From positions 1,664,001 to 1,728,000 of the forward strand of contig CP000070.1 in NCBI GenBank assembly GCA_000002445.1: a DNA stretch of 64,000 nt. Reading direction: 5' to 3'. The notes under the pieces were generated by a model that was not told the origin of the DNA, did not search any database, and saw only the letters and a list, made by a program, of their open reading frames with translations. This DNA is from Trypanosoma brucei. Its lineage: Eukaryota. The translations under genes were made by a program, and so were the position numbers. Shown in pieces: positions 1-7,380 of the stretch. The stretch's first letter is position 1. Each line of letters starts with the position of its first letter.

Positions 1-1484
1 TGAAAAGCATCAATGTGAATGCCCCCTTGGATTGATGCACGGATCTCATCGGCGCCGAAGTGCGGGCTCCACAACTTCCCTTAACTTTGGTGACACGAAG
101 TAGCAATTATGAGCCAATCCGCCTCTTCCTCCTCGGTATTATTTCCCTTTCCCTCTCTGTTTAGTCTTTTCACTCTATTTTATTTTATTTTTATTTTTTA
201 CTTAGCACCACTTTTTTGCTTTTGATGTGCAGCTTTCGCTTCACACGTTTCTTATATGTCGCCTCTCAGAACTGTTTGTGACCAACCGCCACTAGTTTTC
301 TTAACCTCACTCGCGTTATTGCGCCCTGCAATTGCAGCAGCGAACAAAAAAAAAAAGCAAAGAACAAACACAAATAAAAGAACAGAACAGAACAGAAGAA
401 AATAATGAAGAGAAGTGAACCACTGGATATTGCTCATGTACAGGACGTAGAAAGCACATTACATAACGCACACAAAAGAATATGCAGACAGAAAATAATT
501 TCAACACTGCTCAAGGTTGCGAACAAAAGGAAAAAAATAGGAAGAAGAAGGTGGAAATTTAATGAAGAAAGGGACAACAAATAGACAAATAAACGGTGCC
601 ATATCCTGCATCCGTAACCACAAGAGTGAACCTTCCTTCAGGTGACAAATAAAAAAGGGCCAATGGCCCGTCAAACGACCCCACCGACACAAGATACATA
701 AAAAACAAGTAAATAGCGATAATGATAGTGAGAAAAAAATAAATTAAACAAAACAGTAGCAGCACTTCTTCAACAAAACTGGTCCGTTCACTCACAAAAA
801 CGTGCAACACGATAAACAACAGAAGCAGCTGACAAGCGATCGAACATGAAAAAGAACAAACTCATATATTCCCTCCACTTACATAGATTGAAACACAGAG
901 ATAGAGAACTTTCTTCGGAAACTGCGAAGAATCTTCAACAAGGCCCTCGCACGTGTTACTCGTTTTTTATTACCACACCTCAAAATAATCATGATAATAC
1001 TGACATTTTACTCTACGCGCACCTTCTTTTCTTTTCGCTGTTCACAAACTCAACGTTTTCGGAAACAGAAAAGAAAACATAATAATAATAATATGAAAGG
1101 ATGATTATGCTTTCACAACCTATAAGAAAAACAATGTATTCACCCCCAAGTTTCAATTCTTTTTCTTTAGCTCCTCCTTCTTCACACCGTGGCCTCCTTC
1201 GGAACAAAAAACAATAATGTTGCAAAGACCAAATCATCCCCTCATTTCACATATACACGACAGCGTCTCTCACATGCTCAAGCACCAGTGATAAACAAAG
1301 CGTTACAAGCGGTAATGTTGAGTGAATCGAACGGCACATTACGATATGGCTTAATGACAGCACAAAACACCATAATAATGCACGCTTGTGCGAGTAGACA
1401 AGCCAATTCTGCAACTCAAACATATACCTCTATCAGGTATCACAAGCAATATTTCCAAAGGGAAAATAAGGAAACCATTACTCA

Positions 1485-2129
1485 TTACACATGAATGCTC
1501 TTTCCCATTACACCTGTTACTCCTGGCACCTTAAGTAGCGTCCACATCAAATATGATGCGATTCCACAGAAGAAGTGCCATGTGCTGTGATACATCCTGA
1601 AGTGATCCCTCTTGTCATCAAGGCCCTTTATGAAGAAAATAACGGCAACGGCCATGATGAGGATAAACCCAACTAATCGCCCAATTTCGAGTGCCGGGAT
1701 CCGCCGGCGGTACACATACACCCCAATGGGTATTGAAAACGATACAGCAGCGGGAAATACCGAATTTACCGCCTCCCATGGGCCTCTAGTTTGAAATATA
1801 AGGCATAACATCATTAATGAATATTTTGTAAATCGTTCCACAAATGGATCATGGAGCGCACACATATATACACTCCACGCACCAAGGAGGGAAATGACAA
1901 GAATATTATCCACACGATGCCACGCAAGACTGCTCATGAAAAACTTAGCATCAAACGCTTCACAAATGTGATACATGAGGGATGCTGTTAGGCCGAAGAT
2001 ACCCAAGACAGATTCATATGCATAGCGTTTTCTCAGAAAATGATAGACAGTCGGCACCAACGTAGCATGGCTCACCACAGAGAGGATGCACACAAGCCAA
2101 GAGGCAAATGGCTCCAGTTCCACCTCCAT
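1485..2129 (-). CDS. Array copy 1: 214-aa multi-pass membrane protein, alkaline-ceramidase/CREST-like motifs (SxxxH, D, HxxWHxxxGxxSYL)
   Basis: ATG verified (cat at 2127-2129 on +). About six hydrophobic segments. Motifs TASLMYH, WHRVDN and HSTWHFFCGIASYL resemble the alkaline ceramidase TM3/TM7 zinc-site motifs (human ACER3 FHAWWHILTGLGSYL, recalled). The C-terminal 26 aa are identical in all four copies. Confidence 0.75.
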   Translation of the reverse strand: MEVELEPFASWLVCILSVVSHATLVPTVYHFLRKRYAYESVLGIFGLTASLMYHICEAFDAKFFMSSLAWHRVDNILVISLLGAWSVYMCALHDPFVERFTKYSLMMLCLIFQTRGPWEAVNSVFPAAVSFSIPIGVYVYRRRIPALEIGRLVGFILIMAVAVIFFIKGLDDKRDHFRMYHSTWHFFCGIASYLMWTLLKVPGVTGVMGKSIHV

Positions 2130-2989
2130 TGAGAAAACAACAAAGAGCTACTAACCGTGATGAACTGCTCGTCAGCTGTATGAAACAAATGATCGAGCGT
2201 CACAACAGTAGCAACAAGGAAATGAACCGAGTGACTCTCAGCAAAATGTAGTGTATCACAGGCAATATGCAGCCCGAATACAGTACGAAAACACGAATAG
2301 CGCAGCAAACAGCACCGCGTTCCGTGTAACTTCGGCCCACAGATCTACCTTTTAACAGCAATGAAACAAAAGAAAAGAACACATGGAAAACAGTGCAACA
2401 GGAAATGAGTGGGAAGAGGAATATTATGCTTTACACATAAAAAGGATGTAGTACCCATCATAAATAAACGGATAACATACACGGAGAGAGAAGCGACACA
2501 GTGGTACCCTGGGTCGCAAGGGAAAGAAACGCAAAAGGCAACCGCAACCAATATCAACACACCTCCAAAGTCAGGATTGGGAAACAGAAAACAAACGCAG
2601 AGTTTGCTAAACCGGATGCCGCATACAGCAACCTCCTCTCTCCTCACGGTATTAATCCACCAGCGTTTCACGCCGTTAACACAACAACGCATTAGGGTAC
2701 GAATTCCGTATATTCCATAGTGTTCTGAATAGAAGCCTCCAGATAGTATCAAACAAGGACAAAAGGGATCACTCGGAAGCAAAACCAAAGATAAGATATG
2801 AAAAGCGTCACAAGCGGTAATGTTGAGTGAATGGAACGGCACATTACGATATGGCTTAATGACAGCACAAAACAACATAATAATGCACGCTTGTGCGAGT
2901 AGACAAGCCAATTCTGCAACTCAAACATATACCTCTATCAGGTATCACAAGCAATATTTCCAAAGGGAAAATAAGGAAACCATTACTCA

Positions 2990-5147: not shown

Positions 5148-5988
5148 TCTCCCTGGACAGTGACTGCACGTCAGCTGTATGAAACAAATGATCGAGCGTC
5201 ACAACAGTAGCAACAAGGAAATGAACCGAGTGACTCTCAGCAAAATGTAGTGTATCACAGGCAATATGCAGCCCGAATACAGTACGAAAACACGAATAGC
5301 GCAGCAAACAGCACCGCGTTCCGTGCAACTTCGGCCCACAGATCTACCTTTTAACAGCAATGAAACAAAAGAAAAGAACACATGGAAAACAGTGCAACAG
5401 GAAATGAGTGGGAAGAGGAATATTATGCTTTACACATAAAAAGGATGTAGTACCCATCATAAATAAACGGATAACATACACGGAGAGAGAAGCGACACAG
5501 TGGTACCCTGGGTCGCAAGGGAAAGAAACGCAAAAGGCAACCGCAACCAATATCAACACACCTCCAAAGTCAGGGTTGGGAAACAGAAAACAAAGGCAGA
5601 GTTTGCTAAACCGGATGCCGCATACAGCAACCTCCTCTCTCCTCACGGTATTAATCCACCAGCGTTTCACGCCGTTAACACAACAACGCATTAGGGTACG
5701 AATTCCGTATATTCCATAGTGTTCTGAATAGAAGCCTCCAGATAGTATCAAACAAGGACAAAAGGGATCACTCGGAAGCAAAACCAAAGATAAGATATGA
5801 AAAGCGTTACAAGCGGTAATGTTGAGTGAATGGAACGGGACATTACGATATGGCTTAATGACAGCACAAAACAACATAATAATGCACGCTTGTGCGAGTA
5901 GACAAGCCAATTCTGCAACTCAAACATATACCTCTATCAGGTATCACAAGCAATATTTCCAAAGGGAAAATAAGGAAACCATTACTCA

Positions 5989-6633
5989 TTACACATGAAT
6001 GCTCTTTCCCATTACACCTGTTACTCCTGGCACCTTAAGTAGCGTCCACATCAAATATGATGCGATTCCACAGAAGAAGTGCCACAGGCTGTGATACATC
6101 TTGTAGGGATCATTCTCATCATCAAGGCCCTTTATGAAGAAAATAACGGCAACTGCCATTACGAGGGCGAAACCGAAAAGACGATTCGGGAAAACGCTTG
6201 GAAGACGCCAGCGATATGCGTAAACACAAATGGGAAAGCCAATGCAAATAAATACTGGGACAATAGTGTTTACGGCTTTCCACGCCCCCCTCGCTTGAAA
6301 TAAGACACACATCATCAAAAGGCAGTACTTCGAGCAGCGCTCTGTAAAGAGGTCACGGAAGGCACACATGTACACACTCCATGCACCAAGGAATGAGACA
6401 ACAAGAATATTATCCACACGATGCCACCCGGCTTCATCAAGGATTATCTCCGCGTTAAGTACCTGACAAATGTGATACATGAGGGAGGCTGTCATCCCAA
6501 AAATACCCATGGCCGCCTCATACACGTAGCGTTGTTTGAAGAAATGATGCACCGTTGGTAAAAAGGTAACATGGCTTATAACAGAGAAAAGGCACACAAG
6601 CCAAGAGGCAAATGGCTCCAGTTCCACCTCCAT
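5989..6633 (-). CDS. Array copy 4: 214-aa paralogue; N-terminus like copy 1, internal patch like copy 2, many private substitutions
   Basis: ATG verified at 6631-6633. MEVELEPFASWLVC is shared with copy 1. SxxxH (TASLMYH), D (WHRVDN) and HSLWHFFCGIASYL are retained. Confidence 0.75.
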   Translation of the reverse strand: MEVELEPFASWLVCLFSVISHVTFLPTVHHFFKQRYVYEAAMGIFGMTASLMYHICQVLNAEIILDEAGWHRVDNILVVSFLGAWSVYMCAFRDLFTERCSKYCLLMMCVLFQARGAWKAVNTIVPVFICIGFPICVYAYRWRLPSVFPNRLFGFALVMAVAVIFFIKGLDDENDPYKMYHSLWHFFCGIASYLMWTLLKVPGVTGVMGKSIHV

Positions 6634-7380
6634 TGAGAAAACAACACACAGCTACTAACCGTGATGAACTGCTCGTCAGCTGTATGAAACAAATGATCGA
6701 GCGTCACAACAGTAGCAACAAGGAAATGAACCGAGTGACTCACAGCAAAATGTAGTGTATCACAGGCAATATGCAGCCCGAATACAGTACGAAAACACGA
6801 ATAGCGCAGCAAACAGCACCGCGTTCCGTGTAACTTCGGCCCACAGATCTACCTTTTAACAACAATGAAACAAAAGAGAAGAACACATGGAAAACAGTGC
6901 AACAGGGAATGAGATTTGTGGAGCATATGGATAAGGTGATTAACAACCTGGATTGGGAAAGACACACGAAGATAACAAAAGTAGCGGAAAATATACAATC
7001 AAAAACAAAAAAATAAAGTACGATGGCCACTTACCACCACTCGGACAATAAAAAAGAAAAGTGGGAGAATGAAAAGAAAAAAGTATCAATCGATCCTCGT
7101 AGTAGCATTCAACTGAAAGTATGAAGCACTATGAGGGAAGAAGGGAAAAAGAAAAAAGACGTAACGCATAAACGTCGGGAGCTGCGGATACATATATATA
7201 TATATATATATATATTTGTACATTTGCATTAACAGATTGGTGGATAGGAATGAAAGCAAAAGGAACAAACGAATATTTGACCTCGAGTGCATTCTGCATC
7301 TTTAGGAAACACACATACCACGGCATTGATGTGTTTTTATTCCATTACATATTCCTCCACAGTTGGTTATACAATGTTCC

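What the first reader, a model, noticed from the sequence alone, without database searches (positions are those of the whole stretch)
1286..6912. Tandem array with near-identical non-coding flanks but mosaic, diversified coding regions
The array has four units of about 1.5 kb. The ~850-bp spacers and 3' flanks are about 98% identical between units, and nearly base for base over the stretch I compared by eye. The CDSs differ strongly: copy 3 is only about 50% identical in protein to the others. The differences are patch-wise. Copies 1 and 4 share the N-terminus MEVELEPFASWLVC. Copies 2 and 4 share an internal ~35-aa patch. All four share an identical last 26 aa and an identical stop context. 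The upstream junctions occur in two alternative versions: gagaaaacaacaa...ctactaaccgtgatgaactgctcgtcagctg versus ...attctccctggacagtgactgcacgtcagctg. This pattern indicates concerted homogenisation of the regulatory flanks together with segmental gene conversion or diversifying selection inside the ORFs. It is a cassette-like organisation that a simple duplication followed by drift would not produce.
Basis: seen in the sequence. Interest (0 to 1): 0.7.

Follow-up and report, generated by a model that had tools for sequence, protein, structure and literature searches.

The report
Known trypanosome gene array, homogenised spacers
This is the already described Trypanosoma brucei chromosome 7 array of four PGAP6-like GPI-lipid-remodelling genes, whose spacers are kept almost identical by recombination between repeats while the old, functionally different coding cores are preserved; the pattern is real but was published in 2007, 2010 and 2023.

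Summary
Window 1297-6913 holds four head-to-tail units of about 1.5 kb on the minus strand. Each encodes a DUF3522/CREST membrane hydrolase. Three 895-nt blocks (the last 75 nt of a CDS, the whole spacer, and the 5' leader up to 21 or 40 nt before the next ATG) differ at only 5-7 positions. The roughly 600-nt coding cores are 64-73% identical, with synonymous sites near saturation. The window is T. b. brucei TREU927 chromosome 7, array Tb927.7.6110-6170. Tb927.7.6110 is the GPI-PLA2 and 6150 is a catalytically dead paralogue. Concerted evolution of the spacers is shown: five TREU927-specific variants are present in all three spacers, and gambiense and equiperdum have three copies instead of four. 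Patchwise gene conversion inside the ORFs is significant for copies 1, 2 and 4 but not copy 3. Diversifying selection is not supported (dN/dS 0.16-0.30; orthologues are 98-100% identical between subspecies). A programmed cassette system is not supported either. Jackson 2007 described this array (Tb62a) as having invariant non-coding regions with divergent CDS and GENECONV events. Jackson 2010 recorded 4 versus 3 copies and mosaics. Ji 2023 noted the homologous intergenic regions. The novelty is therefore low. Small new leads are divergence islands shared with T. congolense and an unassayed chimeric fourth copy.

The parts
1297..6913 (-). The whole tandem array: four units of about 1.5 kb. This is T. 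b. brucei TREU927 chr7 array Tb927.7.6110-6170, Jackson's 'Tb62a'.
   Evidence: Repeat families with period 1498-1505. BLAST of a spacer against the window gives homology limits of 1297 and 6913. All four proteins have exact matches to TREU927 proteins. Jackson's coordinates 1665485-1670633 span 5149 bp, the same as 1485..6633.
1485..2129 (-). Copy 1 CDS, 214 aa, XP_846234.1 (Tb927.7.6110, the GPI-PLA2 shown experimentally). SxxxH (S50, H54), D74 and HxxxH (H181, H185) are all present.
   Evidence: Pfam PF12036, 2.4e-52. Exact protein match. Function from PMC10457582. Motifs read from the alignment against the CREST definition.
2990..3649 (-). Copy 2 CDS, 219 aa, XP_846236.1 (Tb927.7.6130 by inference from the numbering). 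It is a chimera. Its N-terminus is its own and resembles that of T. congolense. It carries a short copy-4-like tract. Its last 439 nt are identical to copy 1. All catalytic residues are present. It is absent from gambiense and equiperdum.
   Evidence: Copy number 4 versus 3, and in PMC2854126 Table 2.
4491..5147 (-). Copy 3 CDS, 218 aa, XP_846238.1 (Tb927.7.6150). SxxxH is kept, but D is replaced by G and HxxxH by LxxxR, so it is a presumed pseudo-enzyme. It is uniformly diverged from the other copies, with no significant conversion patch.
   Evidence: PMC10457582. It has one amino-acid difference from gambiense and equiperdum.
5989..6633 (-). Copy 4 CDS, 214 aa, AAZ12681.1 (Tb927.7.6170). All catalytic residues are present. 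Its nucleotide sequence is 100% identical in gambiense and equiperdum.
2170..3064 (-). Homogenised block between copies 2 and 1 (895 nt). It comprises the last 75 nt of the copy-2 CDS, the 3' flank, the spacer, and the 5' leader of copy 1 up to the shared motif CATACAGCTGACG.
   Evidence: 5-7 mismatches to the other two blocks.
3671..4565 (-). Homogenised block between copies 3 and 2 (895 nt).
5169..6063 (-). Homogenised block between copies 4 and 3 (895 nt). It contains pyrimidine tracts followed by an AG (about window 5349-5420). I take these to be the trans-splice acceptor region of copy 3; this is an inference.
   Evidence: No Rfam family and no Pfam domain in the spacer ORFs.
1297..1562 (-). 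Truncated terminal block: the last 78 nt of the copy-1 CDS plus 188 nt of 3' flank that match the internal spacers. Homology then stops.
6634..6913 (-). Truncated terminal block: about 280 nt upstream of copy 4 match the 3' end of the internal spacers, starting near the pyrimidine tract.
   Evidence: 6 mismatches in 275 nt, then random. BLAST 6668-6913 at 97.6%.
1485..1923 (-). Tract of copy 1 that is identical to copy 2 (2990-3428): 439 nt, a recent large conversion or unequal-exchange product.
   Evidence: Run of 188 polymorphic sites, p<1e-4.
2088..2169 (-). Type A junction plus the first 42 nt of the copy-1 CDS, shared with copy 4 (6592-6673).
   Evidence: Run of 25 polymorphic sites, p<1e-4.

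Best explanation
This is an old tandem family of PGAP6-like CREST hydrolase genes inside one polycistronic transcription unit of T. brucei.

Homologous recombination between misaligned or paralogous units (gene conversion and unequal crossing-over) keeps overwriting the long, near-identical non-coding parts of the repeat and the last 78 nt of the CDS. As a result these parts evolve in concert within each genome, and the copy number drifts: four copies in TREU927, three in gambiense and equiperdum.

The coding cores of about 600 nt escape homogenisation for two reasons that reinforce each other:
(a) The paralogues have different functions: 6110 is the GPI-PLA2, 6170 has another activity, and 6150 is non-catalytic. 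Conversions that overwrite a core are therefore removed by purifying selection.
(b) At 27-36% nucleotide divergence the cores are poor substrates for T. brucei homologous recombination, which needs length and is impeded by mismatches. Tracts that start in the spacers therefore stop at the core borders.

Only occasional short patches or rare large events get through. Examples are the 42-nt N-terminus shared by copies 1 and 4, a tract of about 20 nt shared by copies 2 and 4, a 3-nt micro-conversion at codon 188, and the 439-nt tract shared by copies 1 and 2.

Shown here: the concerted evolution of the spacers, the conversion patches, purifying selection on the cores, and the copy-number difference. 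Inferred: the mismatch barrier as the reason tracts stop, and identical UTRs as the cause of the similar expression.
For: - Identity of the locus and proteins. The function of 6110 and the inactivity of 6150 are from PMC10457582.
- Spacer blocks of 895 nt have 5-7 mismatches.
- Within-genome spacer differences are 5-7, against 11-17 between genomes. Five fixed TREU927-specific states are present in all spacers. One equiperdum-specific state is present in both of its spacers.
- Copy number is 4 versus 3 (PMC2854126 Table 2).
- Core pS is 0.64-0.70 and dN/dS is 0.16-0.30.
- Orthologous CDS are 98.1-100% identical between subspecies.
- Patches are significant for copies 1, 2 and 4 only. This matches Jackson's GENECONV/SISCAN flags on copies 1, 2 and 4.
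- A 3-nt cluster differs between subspecies and equals the copy-4 state.
- T. brucei and T. congolense spacers cannot be aligned, while their CDS align at 66-69%.
- T. congolense has two tandem copies that are homogenised except for patches. In those patches 11 nucleotide sites (8 codons) pair Tc1 with copy 4 and Tc2 with copy 1, and none pair the other way.
- T. brucei recombination depends on substrate length, is impeded by mismatches, and uses short-patch repair (PMC1904282 abstract).
- Jackson 2007 states that the non-coding regions of Tb62a are invariant while the CDS diverged, and argues for gene conversion.
Against: - Only three T. brucei-group assemblies and one T. congolense contig were available, so the direction and rate of the events are not measured.
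- The mismatch barrier and selection cannot be separated with sequence data alone.
- The NJ tree of the whole core is poorly resolved (38-72% support). Jackson's whole-CDS SH test rejected the orthologous topology. The age of the paralogues therefore rests on saturated synonymous sites and 8 codons of trans-specific signal, which could partly reflect convergence.
- The central 355 nt or so of the spacer has no counterpart at either array edge. I explain this as erosion of the un-homogenised edges, but I did not test that.
Confidence: 0.8

Rival explanations
1. The spacers are identical because they are under very strong purifying selection as regulatory (UTR or processing) sequence. No recombination between units is involved.
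For: The spacers carry the 3'UTR, the pyrimidine tract and the 5'UTR (inferred). Ji et al. report similar polysomal transcript levels for the three genes.
Against: Selection would conserve orthologous spacers between strains at least as well as paralogous ones. The opposite is seen: 11-17 differences against 5-7, with five strain-specific states shared by all spacers. There is no detectable conservation with T. congolense spacers. No Rfam or Pfam element is present.
Confidence: 0.05
2. The array is a programmed cassette or diversity-generating system. Conserved flanks would serve as recombination handles to shuffle variable cores under diversifying selection, as in antigenic-variation loci.
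For: The layout, with conserved flanks around a variable core and two junction types, superficially resembles such systems. A strain-specific chimeric copy exists.
Against: dN/dS is 0.16-0.30, and no window among the diverged pairs has pN>pS. Copy 4 is 100% identical and copy 3 is 99.4% identical in nucleotides across three subspecies. All copies are complete genes in one transcription unit, with no single expression site. The products are ER-type lipid hydrolases rather than exposed antigens (PMC10457582).
Confidence: 0.03
3. The units were duplicated recently, so the flanks are still identical, and the coding cores then diverged very fast under positive selection.
For: Jackson's whole-CDS tests favour monophyly of the T. 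brucei copies over orthology.
Against: Synonymous sites in the cores are near saturation (pS 0.64-0.70). Positive selection on the protein does not produce that. The cores do not change between subspecies. Sites in T. congolense pair with specific T. brucei paralogues, 11 to 0.
Confidence: 0.05
4. The pattern is an assembly artefact: collapsed or consensus-polished spacers, or a chimeric copy 3.
For: Repeats of 1.5 kb with identical 0.9-kb blocks are hard to assemble.
Against: Each spacer is anchored by unique cores on both sides. The same layout, with near-identical spacers and the same copy 3, occurs in the independent assemblies of T. b. gambiense DAL972 and T. b. equiperdum. The spacers carry copy-specific SNPs.
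Confidence: 0.02

Closest known systems
T. brucei tandem array 'Tb62a' (Tb927.7.6110; Jackson 2007, PMC1855330) and '62ai' (Jackson et al. 2010, PMC2854126)
   Same: It is the same locus. Jackson's coordinates span 5149 bp, equal to 1485-6633 here, with 4 copies. The paper states that the non-coding regions are invariant while the CDS diverged. It gives Ds 0.84 and Dn 0.27. GENECONV/SISCAN events are listed at CDS 1-57 and 101-131. The 2010 paper records 4 copies in T. b. brucei against 3 in T. b. gambiense, PHI p<0.001 and GARD breakpoints.
   Different: Nothing essential differs. This work adds the exact 895-nt block limits, the strain-specific spacer variants shared by all spacers, the description of copy 2 as a chimera with a T. 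congolense-like N-terminus, and island-level evidence for orthology with T. congolense copies. Jackson's whole-CDS test had rejected the orthologous topology.
TbGPI-PLA2 locus (Ji et al. 2023, PMC10457582); mammalian PGAP6/TMEM8A; CREST superfamily (PMC3146951)
   Same: The genes are the same. [quoted passage not shown] 6150 lacks catalytic residues. [quoted passage not shown] The Pfam DUF3522 domain and the SxxxH/D/HxxxH motifs are present.
   Different: That paper treats three genes. The TREU927 reference has a fourth, copy 2 (XP_846236.1), with all catalytic residues, which the paper does not mention. PGAP6 also has a signal peptide and an EGF domain that are absent here.
Concerted evolution with selection-maintained divergence in other trypanosome arrays (for example PGK, hexose transporters, BARP and Tb24 PP1, as discussed in PMC1855330)
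   Same: These are head-to-tail arrays in polycistronic units. Gene conversion homogenises part of the unit while functional differences persist. UTRs are often more conserved than CDS.
   Different: The contrast here is extreme: 99.3% identity in the spacers against 64-73% in the cores. Jackson names only Tb24 and Tb62a as arrays of this type.
Cassette-type antigenic variation loci (VSG with 70-bp repeats and a conserved 3' end; Borrelia vls; Neisseria pilS). This comparison rests on my own knowledge.
   Same: A variable core lies between conserved flanks that can serve as recombination substrates.
   Different: There are no silent donors and no expression site. Selection is purifying rather than diversifying. 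The cores are stable between subspecies.

Membership tests
CREST / TMEM8 (DUF3522, PGAP6-like) transmembrane hydrolases | Match to Pfam PF12036 above the gathering score | tested here: met
   All four copies score 132-180 bits against a cut-off of 29.3.
CREST / TMEM8 (DUF3522, PGAP6-like) transmembrane hydrolases | SxxxH at the end of TM2, Asp at the start of TM3 and HxxxH at the start of TM7 (PMC3146951) | tested here: met
   Copies 1, 2 and 4 have S50/H54, D74 and H181/H185 (copy 1 numbering). Copy 3 keeps only SxxxH, so it does not meet this feature. The motif positions fit predicted helices 37-58, 67-91 and 176-198.
CREST / TMEM8 (DUF3522, PGAP6-like) transmembrane hydrolases | Seven core transmembrane helices / CREST fold | tested here: inconclusive
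   The AlphaFold model has seven helices, but its mean pLDDT is 52 because the alignment is shallow (7 sequences). I did not attempt a fold search because the model is too weak.
CREST / TMEM8 (DUF3522, PGAP6-like) transmembrane hydrolases | GPI-phospholipase A2 activity | not testable with these tools
   Shown experimentally for Tb927.7.6110 only (PMC10457582). Copy 2 has never been assayed.
Concertedly evolving tandem gene array | Head-to-tail units on one strand with a regular period | tested here: met
   Period 1498-1505, all units on the minus strand.
Concertedly evolving tandem gene array | Paralogous repeats within a genome are more alike than orthologous repeats between genomes | tested here: met
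   This holds for the spacers: 5-7 differences against 11-17, with five shared fixed states. It does not hold for the coding cores, which keep orthology between subspecies.
Concertedly evolving tandem gene array | Conversion tracts or unequal exchange detectable (mosaics, copy-number change) | tested here: met
   Permutation test. 439-nt identical tract. 4 versus 3 copies.
Programmed cassette / diversity-generating locus | Silent donor copies feeding a single expressed copy | tested here: not met
   All four are complete ORFs with equivalent flanks in one transcription unit. Transcripts of three are reported.
Programmed cassette / diversity-generating locus | Diversifying selection or rapid turnover of the variable part | tested here: not met
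   dN/dS is 0.16-0.30. The cores are 98-100% identical between subspecies.

The most novel reading that the evidence does not exclude
The short islands that resist homogenisation in both T. brucei and T. congolense lie at the end of TM1 and start of TM2, in the TM2-TM3 loop between the SxxxH and Asp motifs, and in TM5. They may be true trans-specific orthology islands that mark the residues setting substrate or positional specificity of the 6110-type GPI-PLA2 against the 6170-type enzyme (a candidate GPI-PLA1). TREU927 copy 2 (Tb927.7.6130 by inference) would then be a naturally occurring, unassayed chimeric enzyme produced by the same recombination process.
Probability: 0.25. Interest if true: 0.35.

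Novelty: already known. Interest (0 to 1): 0.15.

Why it matters
As a discovery it matters little. The locus, its invariant spacers, its mosaic CDS, its copy-number difference and the enzymology of its main gene are all in print.

It remains a very clean textbook example of gene conversion and selection acting on adjacent segments of one repeat unit.

It also has practical consequences. The identical 0.9-kb blocks make single-gene knockouts hard. The reference strain carries a fourth, catalytically intact paralogue that the functional study did not consider. The T. congolense array suggests which few residues distinguish the paralogues, which gives a short list for mutagenesis in the search for the still unidentified GPI-PLA1.

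Tried and rejected
- I scanned 1-9000 against Rfam at E<=1. The only results were two chance miRNA-like hits outside the array, and none fell in the spacers.
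- I ran the spacer ORFs (188 aa and 103 aa) and the upstream 381-aa ORF against Pfam and found nothing. I treat the spacer ORFs, annotated as Tb927.7.6120 and so on, as spurious.
- Exact-protein contig look-ups for copies 1 and 2 returned nothing. The TREU927 origin was established through the cluster look-up instead.
- I looked for an outgroup within trypanosomatids using the 1.84-billion-protein profile search. The next hits after the T. brucei/T. congolense cluster score 155 bits or less. Those that carry names are Albugo and Colponema, not trypanosomatids. Rooting is therefore weak and the NJ tree is poorly supported.
- The structure prediction had a mean pLDDT of 52. I used it only for helix positions and ran no fold search.
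- I rejected a search for other repeats or arrays in the rest of the window as context, because none of 150 nt or more was found.
- I considered an ectopic donor locus for the cores. I rejected it because the protein search found only the array members and the T. congolense copies.

Full report
**1. What is there**

Window 1297-6913 holds four head-to-tail repeat units with start-to-start spacings of 1498-1505 nt. Each unit carries one complete ORF on the minus strand:
- copy 1: 1485-2129, 214 aa
- copy 2: 2990-3649, 219 aa
- copy 3: 4491-5147, 218 aa
- copy 4: 5989-6633, 214 aa

All four ORFs match Pfam DUF3522 (PF12036) over its full length, at 132-180 bits against a cut-off of 29.3. Every ORF of at least 250 aa in the rest of the window is also on the minus strand. 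No other long repeat occurs in the window. The array therefore sits inside a single polycistronic unit.

**2. Identity of the locus**

The four proteins are exact matches to T. b. brucei TREU927 proteins XP_846234.1, XP_846236.1, XP_846238.1 and AAZ12681.1. Jackson's array 'Tb62a' is given as chr7 1665485-1670633. That is 5149 bp, exactly the span from 1485 to 6633 here. The window is therefore TREU927 chr7, starting at about 1,664,001.

The genes are Tb927.7.6110 (copy 1), 6150 (copy 3) and 6170 (copy 4). Copy 2 is presumably 6130. I infer this from the numbering and from the 2010 table, which lists the spacer ORFs as a second series starting at Tb927.7.6120.

Ji et al. [quoted passage not shown] They showed that 6150 lacks catalytic residues and that 6170 has some other activity. 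They remarked on the 'homologous intergenic regions'.

The CREST motifs are SxxxH, D and HxxxH. Copies 1, 2 and 4 have all of them. Copy 3 keeps only SxxxH.

**3. Checking the observation**

A 50-nt sliding comparison shows 96-100% identity in the spacers and 42-94% in the cores.

The homogenised block is exactly 895 nt in each of the three internal repeats: 2170-3064, 3671-4565 and 5169-6063. It runs from 75 nt before a stop codon, through the 841-860-nt spacer, to the motif CATACAGCTGACG. That motif ends 21 nt before the next ATG in type B junctions (copies 2 and 3) and 40 nt before it in type A junctions (copies 1 and 4). The blocks differ at 5-7 positions.

The last 78 nt of all four CDS are identical.

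At the array edges, homology stops about 188 nt after the stop codon of copy 1 and about 280 nt before the ATG of copy 4, near a pyrimidine tract.

The coding cores are 64-73% identical in nucleotides and 49-67% in protein. The exception is the pair of copies 1 and 2, which are identical over their last 439 nt.

Copies 1 and 4 share the type A junction and the first 42 nt of the CDS. The patch shared by copies 2 and 4 is only about 20-30 nt.

I ran a permutation test on the longest run of shared polymorphic sites. It is significant for copies 1-2 and 1-4 (both p<1e-4) and for copies 2-4 (p=7e-4). It is not significant for copy 3 with any partner.

**4. Is it concerted evolution?**

I fetched the same locus from T. 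b. gambiense DAL972 and T. b. equiperdum. Both have three copies and lack copy 2.

Spacers within TREU927 differ at 5-7 of 815 columns, but they differ from the orthologous spacers of the other two genomes at 11-17 columns. At five columns all three TREU927 spacers share one state and all four spacers of the other genomes share another. One state is specific to both equiperdum spacers. Strict orthology would need parallel mutations to produce this, so the spacers are homogenised within genomes.

The coding cores behave in the opposite way. Copy 4 is 100% identical in nucleotides across the three genomes, copy 3 is 99.4% identical and copy 1 is 98.1% identical.

Among the few differences in copy 1 is a 3-nt cluster at codon 188. 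There the other subspecies carry the copy-4 state, which is the footprint of a micro-conversion.

The T. brucei spacer has no detectable similarity to the T. congolense spacer, while the CDS align at 66-69%. Over the time in which the cores diverged, neutral non-coding sequence would therefore have become unalignable.

**5. Selection on the cores**

Nei-Gojobori estimates for the cores give pS 0.64-0.70, which is near saturation, and dN/dS 0.16-0.30. Among the diverged pairs, no 30-codon window has pN above pS. The only exception is the poorly aligned N-terminus of copies 1 and 2, at 0.29 against 0.25. This is old divergence under purifying selection, not diversifying selection.

**6. T. congolense**

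One contig carries two tandem copies that differ at 60 of 657 nt. The differences cluster at nt 133-273 and 382-421, and the rest is identical. I took the sites where the two T. congolense copies differ and copies 1 and 4 also differ. At 11 nucleotide sites in 8 codons, Tc1 pairs with copy 4 and Tc2 with copy 1. No site pairs the other way (binomial p about 0.001 on sites and about 0.008 on codons).

This suggests that the 6110-type/6170-type split predates the T. brucei/T. congolense split, and that T. congolense has homogenised everything except a few islands.

The islands map to the end of predicted helix 1 and start of helix 2, to the loop between the SxxxH and Asp motifs, and to helix 5. 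The helix positions come from a low-confidence model.

Jackson's whole-CDS SH test rejected the orthologous topology, and my whole-core NJ tree is weak. This point is therefore a lead rather than a result.

The N-terminus of copy 2 (MSNSPASHDNKMFTSCFVC) resembles the T. congolense N-terminus (MAGHNKADDTRMYTSWIIC). Copy 2 is therefore more likely an old lineage that was partly overwritten by copy 1 and lost in the other subspecies than a new construct.

**7. Mechanism**

The best explanation is recombination between repeat units (gene conversion and unequal exchange) that acts freely on the 0.9-kb identical blocks. It is stopped at the cores by purifying selection on functionally distinct paralogues and by the sequence divergence itself. 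T. brucei homologous recombination depends on substrate length, is impeded by mismatches and shows short-patch repair (PMC1904282). That fits both the sharp borders and the occasional very short patches.

Which of the two barriers dominates cannot be decided from sequence alone.

The rival explanations are selection on regulatory sequence alone, a programmed cassette system, recent duplication with fast protein evolution, and assembly artefact. Specific results contradict each of them (and the three independent assemblies).

**8. Comparison with what is known**

- Jackson 2007 lists this array (Tb62a, 4 copies). [quoted passage not shown] It gives Ds 0.84 and Dn 0.27. It reports GENECONV/SISCAN events at CDS 1-57 and 101-131, involving copies 1, 2 and 4. 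These correspond to the patches I found.
- Jackson et al. 2010 record 4 copies in T. b. brucei against 3 in T. b. gambiense, one brucei-specific isoform, PHI p<0.001 and GARD breakpoints.
- Ji et al. 2023 give the biochemistry.

**9. Verdict**

It is already known. The residual points of interest are small: the island-level orthology with T. congolense, and the unassayed chimeric copy 2 in the reference strain.

Noticed in passing
window 2990-3649 (-): Copy 2 (XP_846236.1, presumably Tb927.7.6130) has all five CREST catalytic residues. It is annotated in TREU927. The 2023 functional paper speaks of three genes only and does not mention it. No paper in the searched library contains 'Tb927.7.6130'.
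   Followed up: partly
L005 13005-13648 (T. b. equiperdum, copy 1 orthologue): A 1-nt deletion about 45 nt into the CDS shifts the frame, so the gene is annotated as 201 aa starting from an internal Met. This could be a real pseudogene or an indel error in the assembly.
   Followed up: no
window 2345-2911, 3846-4412, 5344-5910 (-) and 2409-2720 etc. (+): ORFs of 188 aa (TTG start) and 103 aa inside each spacer are annotated as hypothetical proteins in the TREU927 and gambiense records (series Tb927.7.6120). They have no Pfam match and are probably not genes.
   Followed up: partly
proteins P0013, P0161, P0162 (Albugo candida CCI49610-CCI49612, one 29-kb contig): Among the closest relatives outside African trypanosomes are three Albugo candida proteins with consecutive accession numbers on one contig. 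The family may therefore be tandemly arrayed there too. No T. cruzi, T. vivax or Leishmania protein appeared among the ten top hits that I named.
   Followed up: no
window 7100-7650: Just upstream of the array there is a low-complexity stretch with TA and CT/GA-rich simple repeats (TRF rows at 7453-7519). The array homology ends a little before it, at 6913.
   Followed up: no
window spacers, gene-orientation positions about 200-555 of each 841-nt spacer: The central 355 nt or so of the internal spacers has no counterpart in the sequence flanking either end of the array. The terminal flanks therefore do not add up to one spacer. I assume the un-homogenised edges have eroded, but I did not test this.
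   Followed up: no
L004 1454-3738 (T. congolense IL3000 contig CAEQ01002104.1): The contig begins only 1453 nt upstream of the first copy. The true copy number in T. congolense, and whether it has a 6150-like copy, cannot be read from this assembly.
   Followed up: no
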